Below are positions 4,243-19,162 of a stretch of DNA of 24,000 bases, piece by piece (position 1 is the stretch's first letter; each line of letters begins with the position of its first letter). Source of the DNA: Actinomycetota bacterium (lineage in GTDB: Bacteria > Actinomycetota > Actinomycetes > Streptomycetales > Catenulisporaceae); the NCBI GenBank assembly GCA_046724665.1, contig JBKOWZ010000021.1:1-24000 (forward strand), read 5' to 3'. Position numbers and translations under genes: made by a program. Under the pieces are notes generated by a model. It searched no databases, was not told the DNA's origin, and saw only the letters and a list, made by a program, of their open reading frames with translations.

Positions 4243-4896
4243 ATGTCCGCCGGTCCGGAAACACTCAGCACGGTGCCGCGGCCACGTCGCGCGGCTCCCA
4301 TCGTCGTCGGACTCGACGACGGCGAGGCGTCGCTGGCCGCGTTGCGTTGGGCGGCCGGCGAAGCGGTGGCGCATCGCGCACCGCTGATCGCCGTCCACGT
4401 GCTCGACCCGCGTTCCCACGGCTTCGCGCCCTACGCGTGCTCCGGCTCGGACGAGGCGGACGAACTGGGGCAGTCGGCACGGCCCGACGACGCGGCCGCC
4501 GTCAAGCGGATGATCGCCGCGAGCGGCATCGATCCCACGCTGCGCCTCTTCGAGGTCGGCGTGCCCAGCCAGGTGCTGGTGCGCTGCGCGATCGGCGCGC
4601 GCATGCTCGTGCTCGGACACGCCGACCACCACCGCGACCGTGACGGCGAGACCTTCCGCGGCCCGATGCTCGGCTCCGTAGCGCGTGCCTGCACGGCCCG
4701 CGCGACGTGCCCGGTCGTGGTGATCCCGATTCCGGAACGCCATCCGGCGCCCGACACCGCCGAACCGGAGCCGAAGCGTGTCGAGGTCGCGCAGAGCGCG
4801 CCGCTGGTCGGCGGCCGCGCCATCTACCCGAAACGTCAACTGGTGCCGATCGCGCACGGCCATGCCGCGCCGGCCCGAAAGGATGTGAACCGATGA
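4243..4896 (+). CDS. Universal stress protein (single Usp domain with a Pro/Ala-rich C-terminal tail)
   Basis: ATG 4243 lies 5 nt after the upstream TAG. Motifs are PIVVGLDDGEASLAALRWAAGEA...LIAVHV and MLVLGHADHH...GPMLGSVARACTARATCPVVVIP. Its stop overlaps the next start (ATGA at 4893-4896). Confidence 0.85.
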   Translation: MSAGPETLSTVPRPRRAAPIVVGLDDGEASLAALRWAAGEAVAHRAPLIAVHVLDPRSHGFAPYACSGSDEADELGQSARPDDAAAVKRMIAASGIDPTLRLFEVGVPSQVLVRCAIGARMLVLGHADHHRDRDGETFRGPMLGSVARACTARATCPVVVIPIPERHPAPDTAEPEPKRVEVAQSAPLVGGRAIYPKRQLVPIAHGHAAPARKDVNR

Positions 4897-8206: not shown

Positions 8207-9073
8207 TCAGCGGATCGGGACGACGGCCACCGGCGTCGGCGAGTGTGATAACAGGCCCTGCGCGACGTAACCAGCGCCGACCGACAGTGAGCTGCGCTTG
8301 CGATGTGCGCCGATAACCACCAGCCGCGCGTCACGCGGCGCTTCGATCAGCATCGGCACGGCGTTGCCGCGCATCGTGCTGACGCCGACCTTGACGTGAG
8401 GGTACTCCTCCCGCAGCCCCCTGATCAGCGCCTCGGCCTGCTCGGCCTGATGGCGTTCGGTGAGGTCGATGTCCTCCAGGTAGTAGCCGCCGTAGGTCAC
8501 GCGCGGCCACCAGGCACGCACCACGGTGAGCATCGCGCCGAGCGCCGACGCGGTCTGGAAGGCGAACCGGATCGGCGCTTCGGCCTGGTCCGGCTCGACG
8601 CCGAGGACGATCTCGTTGTACGGATCGGCGATCTGTGCGCCGCGCACCACGACCGCCGGGCCGTGCGCGTGCGCGGCGAGCTTGAGACTGACCGAGCCGA
8701 GCAGCAGGCCGGCGAAACCGCCGTGGCCGCGAGTGCCGGTCACCACGAGGTCTGGTTCCCCGCTCAGCGCGATCAACGTCTCCGGTGCACTCGCGTCGGA
8801 CAGTTCGCTGTCCAACGGCACGCCGGGAAACCGCTCACGCATCACGCTGACGACACGGCCGAGCAGCGCGGCACCGTCATCGCGGCGCGCTTGGGTGTAC
8901 CCGACCGCTTCGGAGTAGACGCTGGTTGCGCCGAGGTCGAGCGCGTGCACGACCAGCACCGGCACGTGCAGGTCAGCCGCCTGGCGCGCCGCCCAGAGCG
9001 CGGCGTGCAGCGCGTTGTCGGAGGAGTCGACGCCGACGACGATGCGCCGCGGCGTCAAGGGGCTCTGTGTCAT
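8207..9073 (-). CDS. Universal stress protein, tandem UspA domains
   Basis: Motifs are RIVVGVDSSDNALHAALWAARQA...VLVVHAL, LVVTGTRGHGGFAGLLLGSVSLKLAAHAHGPAVVV, and a second repeat LVVIGAHRK.... I preferred ATG 9073 (GAGG upstream) to the in-frame GTG at 9082 used by the track. Confidence 0.9.
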   Translation of the reverse strand: MTQSPLTPRRIVVGVDSSDNALHAALWAARQAADLHVPVLVVHALDLGATSVYSEAVGYTQARRDDGAALLGRVVSVMRERFPGVPLDSELSDASAPETLIALSGEPDLVVTGTRGHGGFAGLLLGSVSLKLAAHAHGPAVVVRGAQIADPYNEIVLGVEPDQAEAPIRFAFQTASALGAMLTVVRAWWPRVTYGGYYLEDIDLTERHQAEQAEALIRGLREEYPHVKVGVSTMRGNAVPMLIEAPRDARLVVIGAHRKRSSLSVGAGYVAQGLLSHSPTPVAVVPIR

Positions 9074-9100
9074 CGCAGCCACCTCGATCGTGAAATCGGA

Positions 9101-9616
9101 TCAGATGCCCGAGTAAGGCCGGCCGTGCAACTCAGGCCGTTGTTCTTCCAGTTCCCGTAGGGGATCCCACTGGCCACGGCCGCGCCAGCGGTGCGGACGG
9201 CGCACGGCGCGCGACATCTCCGGCGCTGGGACGGCGAGCACCGGGCAGCGAGCATGCCGAATGACGGCGCGCGAGACCGAGCCGGACCAGAACGCGTGCC
9301 ACGCACCCTTGCCGCTGGCGCCGACCACGATCAGGTCCTGCGGATCGGCGGCGGCCGCGCACAGCGCTTCGCTGATCGAGAGCCAGGAGACCCGCAACTC
9401 GACCTGGACGTCGGCGGGAATCACACCGAGCGCGTCCAGGAAAGCCGTTGCCATCGCGGTGGAATCCACGCACGCGATCCCGGTGGTGCGCGTGCGCACG
9501 CCGAGCAGCGGCATCCTGCGGCGGCGCGCCTCGGCGACGGCGGCGCGGATGGCGGCCAGACCGGACAGCGAGCCGTCGACACCGACCACCACACGTGGGT
9601 GCTCGTACTCGTTCAT
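9101..9616 (-). CDS. Universal stress protein (single, divergent Usp domain)
   Basis: The start is ATG 9616 (MNEYEHPRVVVGVDGSLSGLAAIRAAVAEA...) with a strong AAGGAG SD upstream. A further motif is LIVVGASGKGAWHAFWSGSVSRAVIRHARCPVLAVP. The track start at 9715 adds 33 implausible codons. Confidence 0.85.
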   Translation of the reverse strand: MNEYEHPRVVVGVDGSLSGLAAIRAAVAEARRRRMPLLGVRTRTTGIACVDSTAMATAFLDALGVIPADVQVELRVSWLSISEALCAAAADPQDLIVVGASGKGAWHAFWSGSVSRAVIRHARCPVLAVPAPEMSRAVRRPHRWRGRGQWDPLRELEEQRPELHGRPYSGI

Positions 9617-9929
9617 TGTGTGGGCTCCTTGCATACTGCCGCGCCAGCCTGTGTATGGCCTTCGCGCGGATCGGCAATCTTCGATGGTTGTCTGTTTTGG
9701 CCATTGCTTTCTCACTCTTCAGTGTCACGTTGCTGTCGGATGATGGACACGGTCGTACGTCCCGCCGAGGTCAGCCGGAAGACCTTTGTGGATGGCCACC
9801 TCACGACCGCGACCCGCTACGCGATGCGTCCGAGTCGGCCGTGCTCGGCCGATTTGGCAGAGAGTCAGAAGAACGGCGTAGCCGTACTCGTGGAATGAGA
9901 TACAGGGGCGCTCGGTCGGCGGCTCGTTG

Positions 9930-9959
9930 TTAGCACTCGGCCACCCGGACTGCTAGAGT
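9930..9959 (+). promoter_or_regulatory. Candidate sigma70-type promoter: TTAGCA - 18 nt - TAGAGT
   Basis: TAGAGT (9954-9959) fits the actinomycete TAnnnT / TAGAPuT -10 box. TTAGCA (9930-9935) matches TTGACA at 4 of 6 positions. The predicted start near A9966 coincides with an ATG. This is sequence pattern only. Confidence 0.3.
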
Positions 9960-9965
9960 TCCGGT

Positions 9966-10363
9966 ATGCGGACGTCCCCGCTACAAGCAGGGACGGGACA
10001 CTTCGCGGCGACGTTTGCCGCTCCGGGGTTCGCGAAGCTTACTCGGGAGTAACCCCTCTATCGAGACAGCCTGAATACTGACTGTGGTTGAGGGCCTGTC
10101 TAACCCTTTGTTCCACAAGATGTAGCAGAGGAATCCATGCGAGCCTCCACACCTAGTAGTCCGTAAGTGCGGGACTGTCGGTGGTCGCGGCTACCATGGC
10201 GACAATTAACCGAAAGACCCCGGCTCATCGGGTGTCTAGACCGAGAACCAGGGCCTTTCTTGCGTTTGGGACGCGCAGTAACCCTACAGTGCGGCGGAAT
10301 GATCCCGCCACATCCTCTCGGCAGACGCCCTGTGTTGTTCAGGGCCAAGACGTGAGGATATAT
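9966..10363 (+). other. Long AT-richer, hairpin-rich untranslated leader / candidate cis-regulatory or non-coding RNA upstream of the orphan gene
   Basis: No credible CDS on either strand. At least eight short helices can be read by eye (coordinates in findings), including a mutually exclusive pair. I recognised no known RNA family signature. Confidence 0.35.
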
Positions 10364-11236
10364 ATGTCTCAGGATGTCATCGACATTCCGGCCACACCTG
10401 CTGCTGAGCAGGTCGGCGCACTGCGTGAATTGCGCGTGCTGGCCGGATGGCTCTCGCCGGAGGAAGCTGTTCCGACGCTGCTGAGCTACCCGGGAGCGGC
10501 ACCCGAGGAGGCGCACGCCACGGCGGCCAAGCACGCGGCGCTCCGCGCTGCCGTGATCGCTCGCGGGGCCGCTGCGCTGGAGTCCCCGATCGTGTCTGGA
10601 GATCGGACCTTTCTCGATGCGGTGGCGAGCCGCCCGGAGGTGCACGCTGCCTTCTCGCCGCGTCCGATCCGCATCGAGTGGGTCGATCTGACCCGTGTCA
10701 TCGCTGTCCAGAAGCTCGTGTTCACCGACGGCATGGACGACAGGGTCGCCGCCGCAGCCACTAACGAGTCCGCTCTGGTGGAGCTCTGCCTGCCCTCGCA
10801 GCCGGCGATGTCCCCGGTCACCGTCTCGCAGGACAACGACGGGCGCGGCTTCACGTTCAGCTCGACGGATCCGAACCTGCGCCTCCACGGGGCTCAGGTG
10901 GTCGACGGTGCGGTGACCTTCATCGTCGGGACGGGATCTCCGTTCCTCTCGGTGGCGAGTTACCAGGGGTACCACTACCTGCAGAACGGATATCACCGCA
11001 CGGCGGGCCTGCTGCGGCGCGGATTGACGGTGGTGCCGGCAGTCGTCGTGGAGAACTCGGCTTACGACTTCCCCGGTGGCCGTGGAGCCCCGCAGTTCGG
11101 ACCCGAGATCCTCGCTGCGGCCGTGCCTCCGCTGCTCACTGACTACTGGGATGAAACGGTGGCGGCGGGCTCGTTCCGGTCGTACGCGAGTAAGAATCTG
11201 CGCGTGCGGGCTGAGGAGTTCATGACGCCGCGCTGA
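10364..11236 (+). CDS. Hypothetical protein, 290 aa, with a C-terminal ParB/sulfiredoxin-fold-like motif
   Basis: ATG 10364 has GAGGA 5 nt upstream. The frame is open to TGA 11236 with periodic G/C third positions, though more A/T-ending codons than its neighbours. The motif YHYLQNGYHRTAGLLRRGLTVVPAVVV resembles the DGhHR...G...vPv.v core of ParB-like nuclease/Srx domains. The rest is unrecognised. Confidence 0.6.
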   Translation: MSQDVIDIPATPAAEQVGALRELRVLAGWLSPEEAVPTLLSYPGAAPEEAHATAAKHAALRAAVIARGAAALESPIVSGDRTFLDAVASRPEVHAAFSPRPIRIEWVDLTRVIAVQKLVFTDGMDDRVAAAATNESALVELCLPSQPAMSPVTVSQDNDGRGFTFSSTDPNLRLHGAQVVDGAVTFIVGTGSPFLSVASYQGYHYLQNGYHRTAGLLRRGLTVVPAVVVENSAYDFPGGRGAPQFGPEILAAAVPPLLTDYWDETVAAGSFRSYASKNLRVRAEEFMTPR

Positions 11237-11275
11237 TCGACCGCTCAGGGCCGATTAGCGACCAGAAGCAGCAAA

Positions 11276-11305
11276 GGTGCCGGGCGGGTGCTCCTGCCCG
11301 GCACC
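11276..11305. terminator. Bidirectional intrinsic-terminator-like hairpin between convergent genes
   Basis: GGTGCCGGGC (11276-11285) and GCCCGGCACC (11296-11305) form a perfect 10-bp GC-rich stem around a 10-nt loop. The hairpin lies between the stop at 11236 (+) and the hypE stop at 11310 (-). There is no clear U-tract, which is common in high-GC actinomycetes. Confidence 0.6.
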
Positions 11306-11309
11306 AGCG

Positions 11310-12401
11310 CTAGCAGATGCGGGGTAGTTGTTCGCCGACGAGCATGTCGATGATGCGGTAGGCGCCGACGAGCGTGTGGAGCGCGACGCGACCGGGGTGG
11401 TGGGCGATGACTGTGCCGATGCGTACGGCCTGTGCGCCTTCCGGGCGGGCGCGCATCGCGGCGAGTACGGCGTCGGCGTGTACCGGGTGGACGAAGGCCA
11501 CGGCGCAGCCCTCGTTGGCCACGTGCAGGGGGTCGAGGCCGAGTAGGTCGCAGGCTGCTGCGACGACCGGCGGGATCGGGATCGCGTTTTCCTCGATCAG
11601 GATGCCGACGTCCGAGGACTGCGCGAGTTCGTTGAGGGCGGAGGCGAGGCCGCCTCGGGTCGGGTCGCGTAGGGCGTGCAGGTTGGGACCGGCCGTGTCG
11701 AGCATGGCTTGGACGAGGCGGTGCAGCGGCCTGGTGTCCGAGTGCAGCTCGGGGTCGGCGTCGAAGCCGAGGTCTTCGCGTGCGGCCAGCACGGTGACGC
11801 CGTGCAGGCCGATGGGACCGGAGAGCAGGACGGCGTCGCCGAGCTGGATCGCGGTGGCGGCGCAGCGGGCCCGCGGCGAGCGGCGGCCGAATCCGGTGGT
11901 GGTGATGAACAGTTTGTCCGCGCCGCCGCGTCCGACGACCTTGGTGTCCCCGGTGACGACGGGCACGTCGGCCGCCTCGGCGGCCTTTCCGATCGATGTG
12001 ACGATGCGGCGCAGGTCGGCCAGCGGGAAGCCTTCTTCGATGATGAGCGCTATGGCGAGGGCGAGGGGTTGTGCGCCGCGCATCGCCAGGTCGTTGATCG
12101 TTCCGTGTACGGCGAGGGTGCCGATGTCGCCGCCGGGGAACTCGAGGGGATCGACGACGTACGAGTCCGTGGTCAGCACGGCGTTGGCGGCTTCGGTGGG
12201 TGTCGCGAGCGGGCCGAGGTCGATGATCGCGGCGTCGTCGAGGCAGATTTCCGCCGCTGCGGCGCCGAGGGCGGGCACGATGAGGTCGCGCAGCAGTTGG
12301 GCGGAGAGCTGGCCGCCGGAGCCGTGGCCGAGCAGCACGCGTTCGTGTTCGGCGTGTGGCAGCGGGCAGGTGGCCTGGACGGGGTCGTTGATGACTGACA
12401 T
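11310..12401 (-). CDS. hypE: [NiFe]-hydrogenase maturation protein HypE (carbamoyl dehydratase)
   Basis: 363 aa. N-terminus is CPLPHAEHERVLLGHGSGG, the body is AIR-synthase-like, and the diagnostic C-terminus ends ...GEQLPRIC. GAAGGAGG SD lies upstream. Confidence 0.95.
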   Translation of the reverse strand: MSVINDPVQATCPLPHAEHERVLLGHGSGGQLSAQLLRDLIVPALGAAAAEICLDDAAIIDLGPLATPTEAANAVLTTDSYVVDPLEFPGGDIGTLAVHGTINDLAMRGAQPLALAIALIIEEGFPLADLRRIVTSIGKAAEAADVPVVTGDTKVVGRGGADKLFITTTGFGRRSPRARCAATAIQLGDAVLLSGPIGLHGVTVLAAREDLGFDADPELHSDTRPLHRLVQAMLDTAGPNLHALRDPTRGGLASALNELAQSSDVGILIEENAIPIPPVVAAACDLLGLDPLHVANEGCAVAFVHPVHADAVLAAMRARPEGAQAVRIGTVIAHHPGRVALHTLVGAYRIIDMLVGEQLPRIC

Positions 12402-16318: not shown

Positions 16319-16977
16319 ATCCTCAGCGTGGCGCGCGGGGACAGCACTCTGGCAGGGCCGCCCGGCCGCGACGAGCCGGGACCTTCGGCCCGATGACCGA
16401 GCGGAAGCGAGCCGAGCACTTCCCGGGTGATCCGGTTCACCAGCTGCGGAACCGCCATCGACACCGGCCGGGACAGCGGCGCGCCGAGCCGGAACTCCCG
16501 GCCGTGCACGGCGTAGAGGATCAGCCGGCCGGGCAGCCGGTCGAGCACCTGGCCGAGCCGCACCGCCGCACCGAGCCCGGCCGCATGGCTGTTGCCCTCC
16601 GGCTCGGTCCAAGCGCGGACGCTTGTGCCCGAGTGGGGGTCAACGCTGCTGCCGCCGCCACCGATGCGCGGCTCTGGCCGCCGCGCTCCGCCGGGCCGTG
16701 GCGGTACGGCGTCGGACGTCAGGTCGCGCCGATAGACGAAGCCGTAACGTTCCGCGCCGCCGCGTACCGCGTCGACGACCAGCGCGCAGCGGTAGCCCTC
16801 CCAGAGGTCGATCATCCGGGCCGGCTCGCCGTCGCAGCGCGCGAGCTGCACCCGGCCGCCGAGGCCGGGCTGGACCCGCAGGGCCTCGATGACCGCGGCG
16901 CCGAACCCGTCGTCGCCGCGCAGCTCGGTGCCGACACCGATGACGATGATCTGCGGGTCCTGACTCACTGGTCTCAC
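16315..16977 (-). CDS. Hydrogenase maturation endopeptidase (HycI/HoxW/HybD family)
   Basis: Motifs are IIVIGVGTELRGDDGFG, ALVVDAV and SHAAGLG. The start is taken as the GTG at 16977, overlapping the large-subunit TGA (GTGA); an alternative GTG is at 16968. It has an unusually long Pro/Gly-rich spacer between the Asp and His motifs. Confidence 0.8.
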   Translation of the reverse strand: MRPVSQDPQIIVIGVGTELRGDDGFGAAVIEALRVQPGLGGRVQLARCDGEPARMIDLWEGYRCALVVDAVRGGAERYGFVYRRDLTSDAVPPRPGGARRPEPRIGGGGSSVDPHSGTSVRAWTEPEGNSHAAGLGAAVRLGQVLDRLPGRLILYAVHGREFRLGAPLSRPVSMAVPQLVNRITREVLGSLPLGHRAEGPGSSRPGGPARVLSPRATLRI

Positions 16978-18320
16978 CTTCTCGTCACGTCGAGGTCCAC
17001 ACGGTGCAAATCCAGGAAGTGCGCGGAGCAGGAGATGCAGGGGTCGTAGTTGCGGATCGCCTGCTCGCAGTGCAGGGTCAGGTGCGCGTCGTCGAGGTGC
17101 GCCCCGGCCTGCACGACCAGGCGCAGGTCGGCCTCGATGGCGGCCTGGTTCTGCGCGGTGGGCGGCACGATGCGCGCCGCGGTGATCAGGCCGCGCTCGT
17201 CGAGGTCGTAGCGGTGGTAGAGCAGCCCGCGCGGCGCCTCGGTCGCCCCGAAGCCGCGGCCGGCACGCGGCTCGACCGGCACGAACGGCGGGTCCGGCGG
17301 CTCGTAGGCTTCGATGATGGCGCGTGCCTCGTCCACCGCCTGCACGATCTCCACCGCCCGCACCAGCACCGAGCGGAACGGATTGCGCTCGGACACCGAC
17401 AGCCCGATCTCGTGCGCCGCGCCGGCGGCCGCGTCCCACAGCCGAGAACCGGCCAGGTTGTAGCGCGCCAGCGGACCGGTGAGGTATGTGCCCACGCCTC
17501 TGAGGTGCGCATGCAGCGCGGTCGAATGCGGGACCTGCTTCTCGCTGATGTAGTTCTCGAAGTCCGGCAGCGGGAAGCCGATCCCCGCCGTGGTGACGAC
17601 GCCGGAGCCCGCGTCGATCGGGTATCGCGCGGTGTCTCGGCCTTGCGGGTACGTGAAGTCGGCGTCGTCGAGGGCGAGCAGCGCGTGCGGGGTCTCGAAA
17701 TCCGGGAAGTCGAAGTCGGCCGCCCAGCGCAGAGTCTCGAGCGTCGCCGTCAGCGCGTCGTCGAGCCTCGGCTTGAACGCGTCGAGCTCGTTGCGGGTGG
17801 GGGAGCGGTGGAAGCCGCCGATCCGCACGTTGATCGGGTGGATCGCCCGGCCGCCGACCAGCTCCACCAGGTCGTTGCCGGTCTTCTTCAGCGCCAGGCC
17901 GCGCGCGACCACCGCGCGGTGGTCCTTGGCCAGCTCGATCGCGTCCGGGTAGCCGAGGAAGTCGGGGGCGTGCAACATATAGATGTGCAGGGCATGACTC
18001 TCGATCCACTCGCCGCAGTACAGCAGCCGGCGCAGCGCCCTGATCTGTGGCGGTATCCACGTGCCGCACGCGTCCTCGATCGCGCGGCAGGCGCTGAGCT
18101 GATAGGCGACCGGGCAGATCCCGCACACCCGCGCGGTGATGTCCGGCGGCTCGGTGTAGGAGCGCCCGCGCAGGAAGGCCTCGAAGAAGCGCGGCGGCTC
18201 GTAGATGTTCAGCTGCGCCTCCGTCACGCGGCCGTGGTCGAGTACGACGCGGAGCGCGCCCTCGCCCTCGACCCGTGCGAGCGATCCCACTTCCAGGAGC
18301 CGTTCTTGACGATGCGTCAT
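16974..18320 (-). CDS. hyhL: [NiFe]-hydrogenase large (alpha) subunit, group 3b type
   Basis: 448 aa from ATG 18320 (MTHRQERLLEV...). The N-terminal Ni-binding motif is RVCGICP, and the C-terminal one is DPCISCSAH followed by a 14-aa cleavable extension. It is group-3-like in size and lacks a membrane-bound-type N-terminus. Confidence 0.9.
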   Translation of the reverse strand: MTHRQERLLEVGSLARVEGEGALRVVLDHGRVTEAQLNIYEPPRFFEAFLRGRSYTEPPDITARVCGICPVAYQLSACRAIEDACGTWIPPQIRALRRLLYCGEWIESHALHIYMLHAPDFLGYPDAIELAKDHRAVVARGLALKKTGNDLVELVGGRAIHPINVRIGGFHRSPTRNELDAFKPRLDDALTATLETLRWAADFDFPDFETPHALLALDDADFTYPQGRDTARYPIDAGSGVVTTAGIGFPLPDFENYISEKQVPHSTALHAHLRGVGTYLTGPLARYNLAGSRLWDAAAGAAHEIGLSVSERNPFRSVLVRAVEIVQAVDEARAIIEAYEPPDPPFVPVEPRAGRGFGATEAPRGLLYHRYDLDERGLITAARIVPPTAQNQAAIEADLRLVVQAGAHLDDAHLTLHCEQAIRNYDPCISCSAHFLDLHRVDLDVTRR

Positions 18321-18322
18321 GG

Positions 18323-19159
18323 TCAGCCGCCGCCCTTCTCGTCGCGTGCCGCCGCAGTCGTCGCCGCCTGCTCGATTCGCTCGCCGATCGCGCGGAACGC
18401 CGGATCGGCCGGGTTGGCCGAGGTGAGCGTGCGCAGCAGCGCGTCCGGCGACGCGCCGTCGGCCATCAGCAGGCGGGACATGGCACCCACCCGGGCCTGC
18501 CGGGTCGAGCCGAAGCACCCGAAGCAGCCGCGCTGGAAGGCGGGGCACAGCGCGCCGCAGCCGGCGTGCGTGACCGGACCGAGGCACGGCGTGCCGTGCG
18601 CGACGGTGACGCAGACTGTGCCGCGCGCCTTGCACTCGTAGCAGACGCTGCGATCCGGGATCGTCGGCGTGCGCCCGGCCAGGTACGCGGTGATCACTTC
18701 GAGCAGTTGGCCGCGGTCCACCGGGCAGCCGCGCAGTTCGTAGTCGACCTTCACGTGGTCGCGGATCGGCGTCGAGTCCTTCAGTGTGCTGAGGTACTGC
18801 GGGCTGGCGTAGACGGCCGAGGCGTACTCGGCGACGTCGGCGTAGTTCCGCAAGGCCTGGATGCCGCCGCTGGTTCCGCAGGCCCCGAGCACGACCAGGT
18901 AGCGCGACTGCTCGCGTACCCCGCGGATGCGCTCGGCGTCCTCGGGTGTGGTGATCGAGCCCTCGACGAGCGAGAGGTCGTACGGACCCGGCGCGACCGA
19001 GCGCGTGGCCTCGGGGAACGACGCGATGCGCACCCGCCCCGCGATAGCGAGCAGTTCGTCCTCGCAGTCGAGCAGGGAGAGCTGGCAGCCGTCGCAGGAG
19101 GCGAACTTCCACACGGCGAGAGTCGGTGTGGCCGCTGCGGCCGGCGTGGACACGGACAT
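18323..19159 (-). CDS. hyhS: [NiFe]-hydrogenase small (delta) subunit, group 3b type (NuoB/20-kDa-like Fe-S protein)
   Basis: 278 aa. Motifs are [24 protein letters not shown] and the distal Cys cluster [11 protein letters not shown]...GCGALCP...GCFGCFG. There is no Tat signal peptide, so it is cytosolic. Confidence 0.9.
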
Positions 19160-19162
19160 GGT

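What the first reader, a model, noticed from the sequence alone, without database searches (positions are those of the whole stretch)
9617..11305. Compositionally foreign ~1.7-kb wedge between the USP operon and the hyp genes
Elsewhere in the window genes abut or overlap by 4 nt. Here about 750 nt (9617-10363) carry no convincing CDS on either strand. That stretch is visibly AT-richer, for example gaatactgactgtggttg, ttccacaagatgtagcagaggaatccatg, gacaattaaccgaaag and gaggatatatatg. The single gene that follows (10364-11236) uses many A/T-ending codons (tct, gat, gct, gga, aat, act, ttg) that the neighbouring genes largely avoid. The unit ends at a perfect 10-bp hairpin (11276-11305) shared with hypE. 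No integrase, transposase or terminal inverted repeats are visible. It therefore looks like an old or non-canonical acquisition of a self-contained promoter + long RNA + orphan protein module inside a hypoxia/stress locus.
Basis: partly seen in the sequence, partly recalled or inferred. Interest (0 to 1): 0.7.

Follow-up and report, generated by a model that had tools for sequence, protein, structure and literature searches.

The report
Self-contained gene cassette with structured leader
The low-GC gap is real, and its right-hand 435 bases (a promoter and a roughly 400-base leader with a highly conserved folded RNA core) form one portable unit with the following uncharacterised ParB/sulfiredoxin-like gene. 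The same unit recurs in unrelated genomic neighbourhoods of other soil actinobacteria.

Summary
Window 9617-10363 is non-coding and is the only low-GC stretch in 24 kb (0.596 against 0.712). The compositional oddity of the gene itself is marginal (GC3 0.81, inside the window's range).

From about 9930 to the stop at 11236 the DNA is a unit that recurs upstream-to-stop in five other metagenomic contexts. Neighbours there include AbiTii with a methylase and IS110, HicA, a tmRNA-fragment scar, and NLPC_P60/NNH7.

The unit has three parts:
- a palindromic promoter-like site, TTAGCA-N18-TAGAGT;
- a roughly 400-nt leader whose last 150 nt (10205-10354) are more conserved than the coding sequence, form covarying hairpins and sequester the Shine-Dalgarno sequence;
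- a 290-aa protein of an unnamed family (about 750 cluster representatives) with a ParB/Srx-like DGxHR core.

No Rfam, Pfam, NCBIfam, PADLOC or PHROG family matches. Collinearity with the closest hyp operons stops exactly at the hypE stop codon.

The best reading is an acquired, default-OFF, RNA-controlled single-gene cassette. The transcribed strand, the trigger and the protein's function remain inferred.

The parts
9617..9929 (.). Left part of the gap. It is low in GC but not conserved in any relative. It is probably the upstream region of the divergent USP gene (9101-9616, minus strand) and not part of the cassette.
   Evidence: Alignment A8 shows no conservation left of about 9925. nhmmer homology with L019 starts at 9923.
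9930..9959 (+). Promoter-like site overlapped by a palindrome. The -35-like hexamer TTAGCA is at 9930-9935, followed by an 18-nt spacer and TGcTAGAGT (extended -10-like) at 9951-9959. The palindrome is TTAGCAsTC-N9-GAsTGCTAr. The inferred transcription start is near 9966.
   Evidence: Conserved in window, L099 and L019. The palindrome covaries: CACTC/GAGTG in L099 against CAGTC/GACTG in L019. It occurs once in the window, with 0.04 expected by chance. It matches 8 of 12 consensus positions, so the consensus scan did not list it. Promoter function is inferred.
9966..10204 (+). Upstream part of the leader. It is only patchily conserved, with islands CCACAAGATGTAGCAG (10113-10128) and ACTGTCGG (10174-10181).
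   Evidence: Alignment A8. RNAalifold on three sequences gives a weak consensus with a covariation penalty.
10205..10354 (+). Conserved RNA core of about 150 nt. It contains hairpin HP1 (10213-10259), HP2 (10260-10278), the CUACAG linker, HP3 (10289-10311), an anti-SD stretch AUCCUCUC (10312-10319) and a small hairpin GCCCUG/CAGGGC (10327-10345).
   Evidence: Covariance model R1 scores 128 bits here and 115-176 bits in L004, L099, L019 and L103/104. It scores 18 bits in L105 and finds nothing in about 80 other loci of the family. Core nucleotide identity exceeds CDS identity in all 15 pairs.
10354..10366 (+). Shine-Dalgarno sequence GAGGAU (10354-10359) and start codon ATG (10364-10366). In the predicted ground state they are paired with the anti-SD stretch.
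   Evidence: The minimum-free-energy fold of all six leaders pairs the SD region. The anti-SD and SD covary: AUCCUC/GAGGAU, UCUUCUC/GAGAGGA, UUCCCUUC/GAAGGGAA, CCAUCAC/GUGAUGG. SD accessibility is 0.09-0.28 against 0.32-0.44 in shuffles.
10364..11236 (+). orf290, a protein of an unnamed family. It has a helical and beta N-terminal half and a C-terminal ParB/sulfiredoxin-like core with the motif NGYHR...G..VP (residues about 203-227, nt about 10970-11044).
   Evidence: No Pfam, NCBIfam, PADLOC or PHROG family matches. An exhaustive search finds 750 representatives at E<=1e-3. A family profile against PDB sequences hits SbnI and free serine kinase at E=0.0024 on the DGxHR stretch. The AlphaFold2 model has pLDDT 91.4. 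Foldseek gives only weak but recurrent ParB/Srx matches.
11276..11305 (.). GC-rich hairpin between the convergent orf290 and hypE genes. A U-rich tail (UUUGCUGCUUCU) follows only on the minus strand, so it is more plausibly the hypE terminator that also bounds orf290.
   Evidence: Inverted repeat I7 and direct reading of the sequence. The hairpin lies outside the block that is collinear with related hyp operons, which ends at 11310-11312.

Best explanation
Window 9930-11236 is a horizontally acquired single-gene cassette lodged at the distal end of the hyp operon. It is transcribed on the + strand from its own sigma-A-type promoter, which a palindromic operator overlaps.

The resulting mRNA has a 5' leader of about 400 nt. 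In its ground state, the last 150 nt fold into three consecutive hairpins plus a helix that pairs a pyrimidine stretch (AUCCUCUC) with the Shine-Dalgarno sequence, so translation of orf290 is OFF by default.

A competing fold is also conserved. In it the 5' arm and loop of HP1 pair with sequences next to the anti-SD (long-range helices P1-P3). This would free the ribosome-binding site, so the core would act as a riboswitch-like or factor-dependent translational switch.

The regulated product is a ParB/Srx-fold protein, probably nucleotide-binding or a phosphotransferase. Its relatives sit next to RES and PIN toxins, Xre/ImmA switches and abortive-infection genes. This suggests a conflict-system enzyme whose expression must be kept tightly off.

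Shown: conservation of the unit across different contexts, a core more conserved than the CDS, covarying helices, predicted SD sequestration, and the synteny break. Inferred: promoter use and the transcription start, the transcribed strand, the two-state switch, the trigger, and the protein's activity.
For: The unit recurs with different neighbours. All close relatives (44-57% aa identity to orf290 in one joint alignment) have a 590-910-nt gene-free stretch upstream. That stretch is homologous to window 9923-10354.

Core nucleotide identity exceeds CDS identity and third-position identity in every pair. Examples: L099-L004 0.95 against 0.71 and 0.58; window-L099 0.77 against 0.66 and 0.52. One-nucleotide indels exclude coding.

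The helices covary. The local model has 87% of cells paired and 6 pairs with changes on both sides. The long-range model has 90% paired and 10 such pairs. Slid controls give 29-56%. In L105, HP3 is replaced by an unrelated perfect 7-bp hairpin at the same position.

Several features point to the + strand. HP2, HP3, P2 and P3 contain G.U pairs that form only on the + strand. The SD and anti-SD covary, and the SD is paired in the minimum-free-energy fold of all six leaders. SD accessibility is below shuffles in all five tested, reached by 1-5 of 100 shuffles in three. When the SD is forced open, the long-range fold becomes the best structure in L099, L004 and L019, at a cost of 7-12 kcal/mol. 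A conserved promoter-like site lies upstream on the + strand only.

Synteny with L107, L108 and L110 ends at the hypE stop codon.

Protein evidence: the DGxHR profile match to SbnI and SerK, and family contexts including RES, PIN_3, HTH_31 with Peptidase_M78, AbiTii and HicA.
Against: Only five independent sequences carry the element, plus one weak copy, so covariation statistics have little power. The structures were also derived from these same sequences.

HP1, the strongest helix, is more stable on the minus strand in five of six sequences, by 2.8-11.6 kcal/mol. This is because C.A mismatches on the + strand become G.U pairs on the minus strand. The whole gap also folds better on the minus strand: z = -5.1 against -0.7.

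The long-range fold is poorly kept in L103 and L105. It is not the best SD-open fold in the window sequence itself. SD sequestration in the window and in L099 is not significant on its own, reached by 21 and 17 of 100 shuffles.

The promoter matches only 8 of 12 consensus positions, and no transcription data exist. No empty-site genome was found, so insertion is not demonstrated. The gene's composition is not foreign. The protein's function is not established: all fold matches have E>0.009.
Confidence: 0.55

Rival explanations
1. The conserved core encodes a minus-strand (antisense) small RNA. It would start near or inside the 5' end of orf290 and terminate at HP1. On the minus strand HP1 is a long G.U-containing hairpin followed by a U-rich tract. 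The RNA would repress orf290 by pairing across its SD and start codon, as a type-I-antitoxin-like or cis-antisense regulator.
For: HP1 is 2.8-11.6 kcal/mol more stable on the minus strand in five of six sequences, and its mismatches are G.U only there. The minus-strand tail is U-rich: UCUUUCGGUUUUCUUU in L004. The whole gap folds with z = -5.1 on the minus strand against -0.7 on the + strand.
Against: No promoter-like element is conserved on the minus strand: a TANNNT motif is seen in L004 but not in the window (direct reading of the sequences). HP2, HP3 and the SD/anti-SD helix carry G.U pairs that would be C.A mismatches on the minus strand; HP3 of L019 drops from -8.1 to -2.3 kcal/mol. The AAAG...CUUUC flanks make HP1 symmetric, so it could be a bidirectional terminator. 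The protein is 290 aa, unlike type I toxins.
Confidence: 0.13
2. The gap holds two transcription units and DNA-level operators. In this reading there is no single long leader. A stand-alone + strand sRNA of about 300 nt would run from the 9930-9959 promoter to HP1 used as a terminator (tail UUUCUUGCGUUU). orf290 would have its own promoter, with -10 TACAGT at 10285-10290. The inverted repeat CATGCG-N-CGCATG (HP2) over the -35 position would be a repressor site.
For: TACAGT (TANNNT) is conserved in four of six sequences, with TACCTT in L103. HP2 is a near-perfect DNA palindrome that never varies (6 of 7 pairs invariant). HP1 is followed by a moderately U-rich tract on the + strand. The upstream palindrome shows that DNA-binding regulation is used here.
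Against: HP3 keeps its pairing through G.U pairs and is replaced by an unrelated hairpin in L105. This is expected of RNA and not of an operator. The SD/anti-SD covariation needs the RNA to be continuous at least from 10312. A 150-nt block conserved at 77-95% between proteins of 56-64% identity is unusual for promoter DNA. There is no recognisable -35.
Confidence: 0.14
3. The RNA is a functional partner of the protein, and its role goes beyond that of a passive leader. It could be an RNA antitoxin or cofactor, or the protein's own binding site for autoregulation. It would take the place occupied in sister clades by a 55-aa basic protein, a RES toxin or a PIN toxin.
For: The element is strictly confined to one clade of the family and always abuts the gene. 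In the sister clade the same position holds a conserved 55-aa basic protein. ParB/Srx proteins commonly bind nucleic acids and nucleotides (established knowledge; fold matches).
Against: The leader has no tandem repeats of the kind seen in type III antitoxins. There is no evidence of RNA processing or of protein-RNA contact. The protein is not known to be toxic.
Confidence: 0.1
4. It is an ordinary long intergenic region followed by a native, vertically inherited hypothetical gene, and the low GC merely reflects non-coding DNA.
For: The gene's GC3 and codon distance are within the window's range. Non-coding DNA in high-GC actinobacteria is generally lower in GC (general knowledge).
Against: The non-coding core is more conserved than the CDS across hosts. 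The unit has different neighbours in every locus. It is absent downstream of hypE in the three closest hyp operons.
Confidence: 0.03

Closest known systems
SD-sequestering 5' leaders: translational riboswitch expression platforms and protein- or temperature-responsive riboregulators
   Same: A structured element lies directly upstream of the start codon. An anti-SD stretch pairs with, and covaries with, the SD. A mutually exclusive alternative fold is also conserved. The non-coding sequence is more conserved than the gene.
   Different: It matches none of the 4227 Rfam 15 families, even at E<=10. No ligand or factor is known. The leader, about 400 nt, is much longer than a typical riboswitch. 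Only about six examples are known.
ParB/sulfiredoxin-fold enzymes: free serine kinase SerK and S. aureus SbnI
   Same: It shares the DGxHR...G..(I/V)P nucleotide-binding motif, with a profile match at E=0.0024. ParB, Srx and SerK recur among the fold matches.
   Different: The match covers only about 50 residues. The rest of the 290-aa fold has no counterpart, with Foldseek E>0.009 throughout. Catalytic residues were not compared and no activity is known.
Toxin-antitoxin and Xre/ImmA-controlled conflict modules (Xre-RES, VapBC/PIN, ImmR-ImmA)
   Same: Family members are co-operonic with RES (7 loci), follow a PIN_3 gene, or sit beside a divergent HTH_31 plus Peptidase_M78 pair. Close relatives lie next to AbiTii, HicA and IS110.
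   Different: The window cassette has no protein partner at all: an RNA leader occupies that position. No PADLOC model matches.
Type III toxin-antitoxin systems (ToxIN-like), in which an RNA lies upstream of the toxin gene
   Same: A non-coding RNA region lies immediately upstream of, and is co-oriented with, a single protein gene, as a self-contained two-part unit.
   Different: There are no tandem repeats, no terminator between the RNA and the gene that is clearly used, and the protein is unrelated to ToxN/AbiQ.

Membership tests
Any Rfam 15 RNA family, including the cobalamin riboswitch, other riboswitches and actinobacterial sRNAs | Covariance-model score at or near the family's gathering threshold | tested here: not met
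   There were no matches at gathering thresholds in the whole window. The only hits at E<=10 in 9550-10450 and E<=5 in 9000-11600 were chance ones. Nothing was found in the homologous leaders of L099, L103, L105, L004 and L102.
ParB/sulfiredoxin (ParB/Srx) superfamily | Conserved DGxHR / GxxRxxA phosphate-binding motif within the Srx-like alpha/beta core | tested here: inconclusive
   The motif NGYHR...RRGL.VVP is present, and G209, R212 and P225 are invariant in 50 sequences. The profile against PDB sequences gives E=0.0024 to SbnI. Foldseek matches to ParB, Srx and SerK reach probability 0.96 but E>=0.009, with TM-scores normalised to the query length (TMq) <=0.24. There is no Pfam hit.
Free serine kinase (SerK/SbnI) family | Full-length similarity and the catalytic residues of SerK | tested here: not met
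   Only residues about 188-241 align. There is no full-length sequence or fold match. Catalytic residues were not examined.
Type II toxin-antitoxin module | Two adjacent co-transcribed protein genes (toxin and antitoxin) | tested here: not met
   There is no conserved ORF in 9617-10363. The next genes are the divergent USP and the convergent hypE. Relatives in other clades do have RES or PIN partners.
Type III toxin-antitoxin (ToxIN-like) | Tandem array of antitoxin RNA repeats upstream of the toxin gene | tested here: not met
   No direct or tandem repeats occur in the leader.
Type I toxin-antitoxin | Small hydrophobic toxin peptide plus an antisense RNA | tested here: not met
   The protein is 290 aa and predicted to be globular. 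An antisense RNA is possible but not shown.
Integrative genomic island or insertion sequence | Integrase or transposase, a tRNA/tmRNA target, and flanking direct or inverted repeats | tested here: not met
   The window has none of these. In L099 a 43-nt tmRNA 3' fragment lies 215 nt downstream of the homologue. In L100 an IS110 transposase lies 1 kb downstream. These hint at island contexts elsewhere.
Known anti-phage defence systems (PADLOC) and phage protein families (PHROGs) | HMM match to a catalogued component | tested here: not met
   There are no hits for orf290. No relatives were found in IMG/VR contigs.
Intrinsic terminator (hairpin at 11276-11305) | GC-rich stem followed by a U-tract on the transcribed strand | tested here: inconclusive
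   The stem is confirmed. A U-rich tail follows only on the minus (hypE) strand. The consensus scan did not list it.

The most novel reading that the evidence does not exclude
The 150-nt core is a new class of regulatory RNA, either a ligand-sensing riboswitch or an RNA bound by the ParB/Srx-like protein. It gates, or directly neutralises, a stand-alone conflict effector. In this clade it would functionally replace the protein partners that accompany the same enzyme family elsewhere (a 55-aa basic protein, a RES toxin or a PIN toxin). That would make it an RNA-for-protein swap within one toxin-antitoxin or defence-like family.
Probability: 0.15. Interest if true: 0.8.

Novelty: new variant of a known kind. 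Interest (0 to 1): 0.55.

Why it matters
If the leader is a true switch, it defines a new structured RNA family that is not in Rfam. It controls a widespread but completely uncharacterised ParB/Srx-fold protein family, with about 750 clusters at the 50% identity level. That family appears in four very different settings: toxin-antitoxin and defence islands, Xre/ImmA-controlled cassettes, RiPP-like bacteriocin clusters, and cobalamin nucleotide-loop operons.

The RNA offers a handle for finding what signal turns the enzyme on, and therefore what the family does. The case also shows that a promoter, leader and gene can move between genomes as a 1.3-kb unit without any mobility gene.

Tried and rejected
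- **RNA family scans.** Rfam at gathering and permissive thresholds, on the window and on homologous leaders, gave nothing.
- **Cobalamin-riboswitch idea.** This was prompted by family members in B12 operons. It was rejected because there is no Rfam match and the window clade is not in B12 context.
- **Protein family scans.** Pfam, NCBIfam, PADLOC and PHROGs on orf290 gave nothing.
- **Homologue searches.** The word-indexed search badly under-reported the family, finding 4-7 hits. The exhaustive search found 750.
- **Genome contigs DNA pattern scan.** It returned 13 loci (L006-L018), none of which aligned to the window by blastn, so I treat them as chance hits.
- **Viral and plasmid searches.** Viral contig scans with two RNA patterns and with the protein alignment found nothing. 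A plasmid DNA search with the leader found no match.
- **Upstream ORFs.** The 62-aa ORF at 10167-10355 and the 28-aa ORF at 9966-10052 were rejected because of frame-breaking indels and lack of conservation.
- **Extended start.** The GTG at 10181 (351 aa) was rejected for the same reason and because of the homologues' N-termini.
- **Other motifs.** There are no DosR-box-like motifs and no tandem repeats in the leader.
- **Literature.** Searches for a ParB/Srx-type threonine kinase or antitoxin found nothing relevant.
- **Source names.** A cluster look-up gave no names or accessions.
- **Strand assignment.** Hairpin energies gave a split answer: HP1 favours the minus strand, while HP2, HP3 and the SD helix favour the + strand.
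Full report
**Setting.** The window is high-GC actinobacterial DNA (71% GC). The HypE protein is 81% identical to that of an Actinocrinis sp. MAG and 88% identical to one from a forest-soil assembly. Genes to the left of the finding encode USP, CBS-BON, a deacetylase, a GNAT/acyl-CoA-synthetase fusion and two more USPs. Genes to the right are hypE, hypD and hypF, followed further on by two Fe-S/NAD-binding oxidoreductase genes.

**Observation.** Window 9617-10363 lies between the start of a USP gene (minus strand, ATG at 9616) and the ATG of a 290-codon ORF (10364-11236).
- It shows no frame-specific GC3 signal. Its small ORFs are not conserved.
- Its GC is 0.596. All 400-nt windows below 0.64 GC in the whole 24 kb fall here, and the minimum is 4.7 SD below the mean.
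- The ORF itself is only mildly shifted. GC3 is 0.808, its neighbours are 0.84-0.91, and the window-wide range is 0.73-0.92. Its codon-usage distance equals that of hypE.
- The hairpin at 11276-11305 is real. It has a U-rich tail only on the hypE strand.
- The window contains no tRNA or tmRNA. No repeats flank the wedge and no integrase or transposase lies near it.

**The protein.**
- No Pfam, NCBIfam, PADLOC or PHROG model matches.
- The word-indexed search found only four clusters. The exhaustive HMMER search found 750 representatives at E<=1e-3 and 281 at E<=1e-10. The family is therefore unnamed but not an orphan.
- A 50-sequence alignment has invariant G209, R212 and P225 within the stretch RDGYHRAxGLLxxGIxxVP. 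As a profile it matches SbnI and archaeal free serine kinase on exactly that stretch, at E=0.0024.
- With this alignment AlphaFold2 gives a confident model (pLDDT 91.4, pTM 0.87).
- Foldseek against PDB and BFVD gives no match at E<=1e-3. However, ParB-CDP, sulfiredoxin, PadC, KorB, Noc, SerK and phage 'ParB/Sulfiredoxin' proteins dominate the weak hits.
- I conclude that the protein has a ParB/Srx-like nucleotide-binding core embedded in an otherwise undescribed fold. Its activity is unknown.

**The non-coding DNA is part of the unit.**
- The 160 nt upstream of the closest homologue (L004, 58% aa identity) align to window 10205-10363 at about 80-90% identity, with single-base indels.
- nhmmer of the gap against about 100 fetched loci found L019 (window 9923-10347) and L004.
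- Contigs for the next-closest proteins all have a long gene-free stretch upstream: L099 667 nt, L100-102 750 nt, L103 667 nt, L104 at least 593 nt and L105 913 nt.
- A six-way alignment shows three conserved pieces:
  - (i) A promoter-like site, TTAGCA-N18-TGcTAGAGT, at 9930-9959. It is embedded in the palindrome TTAGCAsTC-N9-GAsTGCTAr, whose central base covaries between L099 and L019. The palindrome is unique in the window.
  - (ii) A small island at 10113-10128.
  - (iii) A core of about 150 nt ending at the ribosome-binding site.
- A covariance model of the core scores 115-176 bits in the five relatives and 128 bits in the window. It finds one diverged copy directly upstream of the L105 gene (18 bits) and nothing in about 80 loci of more distant family members.
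- In all 15 pairwise comparisons the core is more conserved than the coding sequence, and much more than third codon positions.
- The core's GC is 0.57-0.64 in every host. The low GC is therefore a property of the element and does not mark foreign origin.

**Structure and strand.**
- Three consecutive hairpins are supported: HP1 at 10213-10259, HP2 at 10260-10278 and HP3 at 10289-10311.
  - HP1 shows C-G to U-A exchanges and register-shifting inner stems.
  - HP3 shows U-A to C-G and C-G to U-A exchanges. In L105 it is replaced by an unrelated perfect 7-bp hairpin.
- Including the start region, the + strand minimum-free-energy fold of all six leaders pairs a pyrimidine stretch just 3' of HP3 with the Shine-Dalgarno region. 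The two covary: AUCCUC/GAGGAU, UCUUCUC/GAGAGGA, UUCCCUUC/GAAGGGAA and CCAUCAC/GUGAUGG.
- SD accessibility is 0.09-0.28 against 0.32-0.44 in shuffled leaders. It is clearly low in three of the five tested.
- RNAalifold on the + strand also predicts a mutually exclusive multi-branch fold. In it, the 5' arm and loop of HP1 pair with sequences flanking the anti-SD. This fold has 90% of cells paired, 10 pairs with double changes and many + strand-specific G.U pairs. Slid controls give 29-46%.
- When the SD and AUG are forced open, this long-range fold becomes the optimum in L099, L004 and L019, at a cost of 7-12 kcal/mol. It does not in the window, L103 or L105.
- Against a purely + strand reading, HP1 is more stable on the minus strand in five of six sequences, because its C.A mismatches become G.U pairs there. 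It is followed by a U-rich tract on that strand, and the whole gap folds better on the minus strand.
- The strand is therefore not settled. I favour the + strand for three reasons: the conserved upstream promoter-like site, the SD/anti-SD covariation, and the + strand-specific G.U pairs in HP2, HP3, P2 and P3.

**Acquisition.**
- The window is collinear with the closest hyp operons from about 18,600 down to 11,310-11,312, which is exactly the hypE stop codon. Nucleotide identity is 84.5% over 7.2 kb for L107, 81% for L108/L109 and 76% for L110.
- Downstream of hypE each relative has different genes: a membrane protein; DUF4389 and flavodoxin; or Pyridox_ox_2. None has orf290 or the USP pair.
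- Conversely, the cassette's neighbours elsewhere are AbiTii with a C5-methylase and IS110 (L100), and NLPC_P60, DUF1349, DUF2971 and NNH7 (L103). L099 has a HicA gene nearby and a 43-nt tmRNA 3' fragment 215 nt downstream.
- This pattern fits a small, frequently relocated unit. No empty site was available, so insertion is inferred.

**Family contexts.** These bear on function.
- The sister clade (43-45% identity) has a 55-aa basic protein (phrog_12550) immediately upstream of the gene, and a divergent HTH_31 plus Peptidase_M78 pair.
- A clade at 35-39% identity forms HTH-RES-family operons.
- One member follows a PIN_3 gene.
- At least 23 loci at about 30-35% identity are translationally coupled inside cobalamin operons.
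- Three alphaproteobacterial plasmids place a distant member between double-glycine-leader peptides with Ser/Lys-repeat cores and a HlyD plus peptidase-ABC exporter pair.
- The common denominator is an enzyme-like ParB/Srx protein under tight or dedicated control. In the window clade that control is supplied by the RNA leader.

**Verdict.** The finding is real and its interpretation is mostly right. It is a self-contained cassette of promoter, structured leader and gene, and it probably moves between genomes. The leader core is a new candidate regulatory RNA. The most likely mechanism is default-OFF translational control through SD sequestration, with a conserved alternative fold. The strand, the trigger, the protein's activity and the insertion event all remain to be tested.

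Noticed in passing
L068 2547-9601; also L048-L098 (at least 23 loci): Distant members of the orf290 family (about 30-35% identity) sit inside cobalamin nucleotide-loop operons with 4-nt overlaps. The gene order is CobT-CobS-CobC(His_Phos_1)-[family]-PduO-type adenosyltransferase-BluB-like nitroreductase-CobQ-CbiB. Given the SerK/SbnI-like motif, the protein could be a missing kinase or nucleotidyltransferase of that pathway, such as an analogue of L-threonine kinase or CobU/CobY.
   Followed up: partly
L111 3476-8324 (Methylobacterium nodulans pMNOD02), L112 1334-5871 (Blastomonas plasmid), L113 3473-8180 (Paracoccus plasmid): These are RiPP/bacteriocin-like clusters. ORFs of 51-60 aa have a double-glycine-type leader (MRELTIDELTHVYGAG...) and Ser/Lys-repeat cores (SKSKSK...). 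They are followed by a 319-325-aa distant family member, sometimes a 2OG-Fe(II) oxygenase, and then HlyD plus a peptidase-domain ABC transporter. This suggests that some family members modify peptides.
   Followed up: partly
L106 1307-1474, L021 4758-4922, L022 217-381: A conserved 55-aa, very basic protein (phrog_12550, E=8e-20) lies immediately upstream of the family gene in the sister clade. It occupies the position that the RNA leader holds in the window clade. A divergent HTH_31 plus Peptidase_M78 (ImmA/IrrE-like) pair lies alongside in L106 and L021, and is also present in L024; L020 has at least the divergent HTH_31 gene.
   Followed up: partly
L028 879-3153; also L025, L027, L031, L037, L038, L039: These loci have a three-gene operon: an HTH protein (277 aa), a RES-domain protein (177 aa) and a family member (302 aa), with 4-nt overlaps. 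A weak, recurrent Pfam PF23719 'VapB antitoxin-like' hit (E 0.009-0.03) falls on the DGxHR stretch of several members.
   Followed up: partly
L099 4091-4133 (minus strand): A 43-nt fragment matches the T-arm and 3' acceptor end of tmRNA (Rfam RF00023, 26.8 bits, E=5e-9). It lies 215 nt downstream of the orf290 homologue and looks like an att-site scar of an element integrated into ssrA.
   Followed up: partly
window 11310-11312 and L107/L108/L110: The hyp operon block (hypF-hypC-hypD-hypE) is collinear with relatives at 76-85% nt identity and ends precisely at the hypE stop codon. The DNA beyond it differs in every genome, so this point is a recurrent recombination or insertion boundary.
   Followed up: yes
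window 4265-4706, 16613-17003, 18642-19162: My rough GC3-based gene calls leave gaps of 390-520 nt that have normal or high GC (0.70-0.75). They may hold genes that I did not call, and I did not examine them.
   Followed up: no
window 10488-10516: A short imperfect 14-nt tandem duplication (ACCCGGGAGCCGC, 2.2 copies) lies inside the 5' part of orf290. It is probably insignificant.
   Followed up: no
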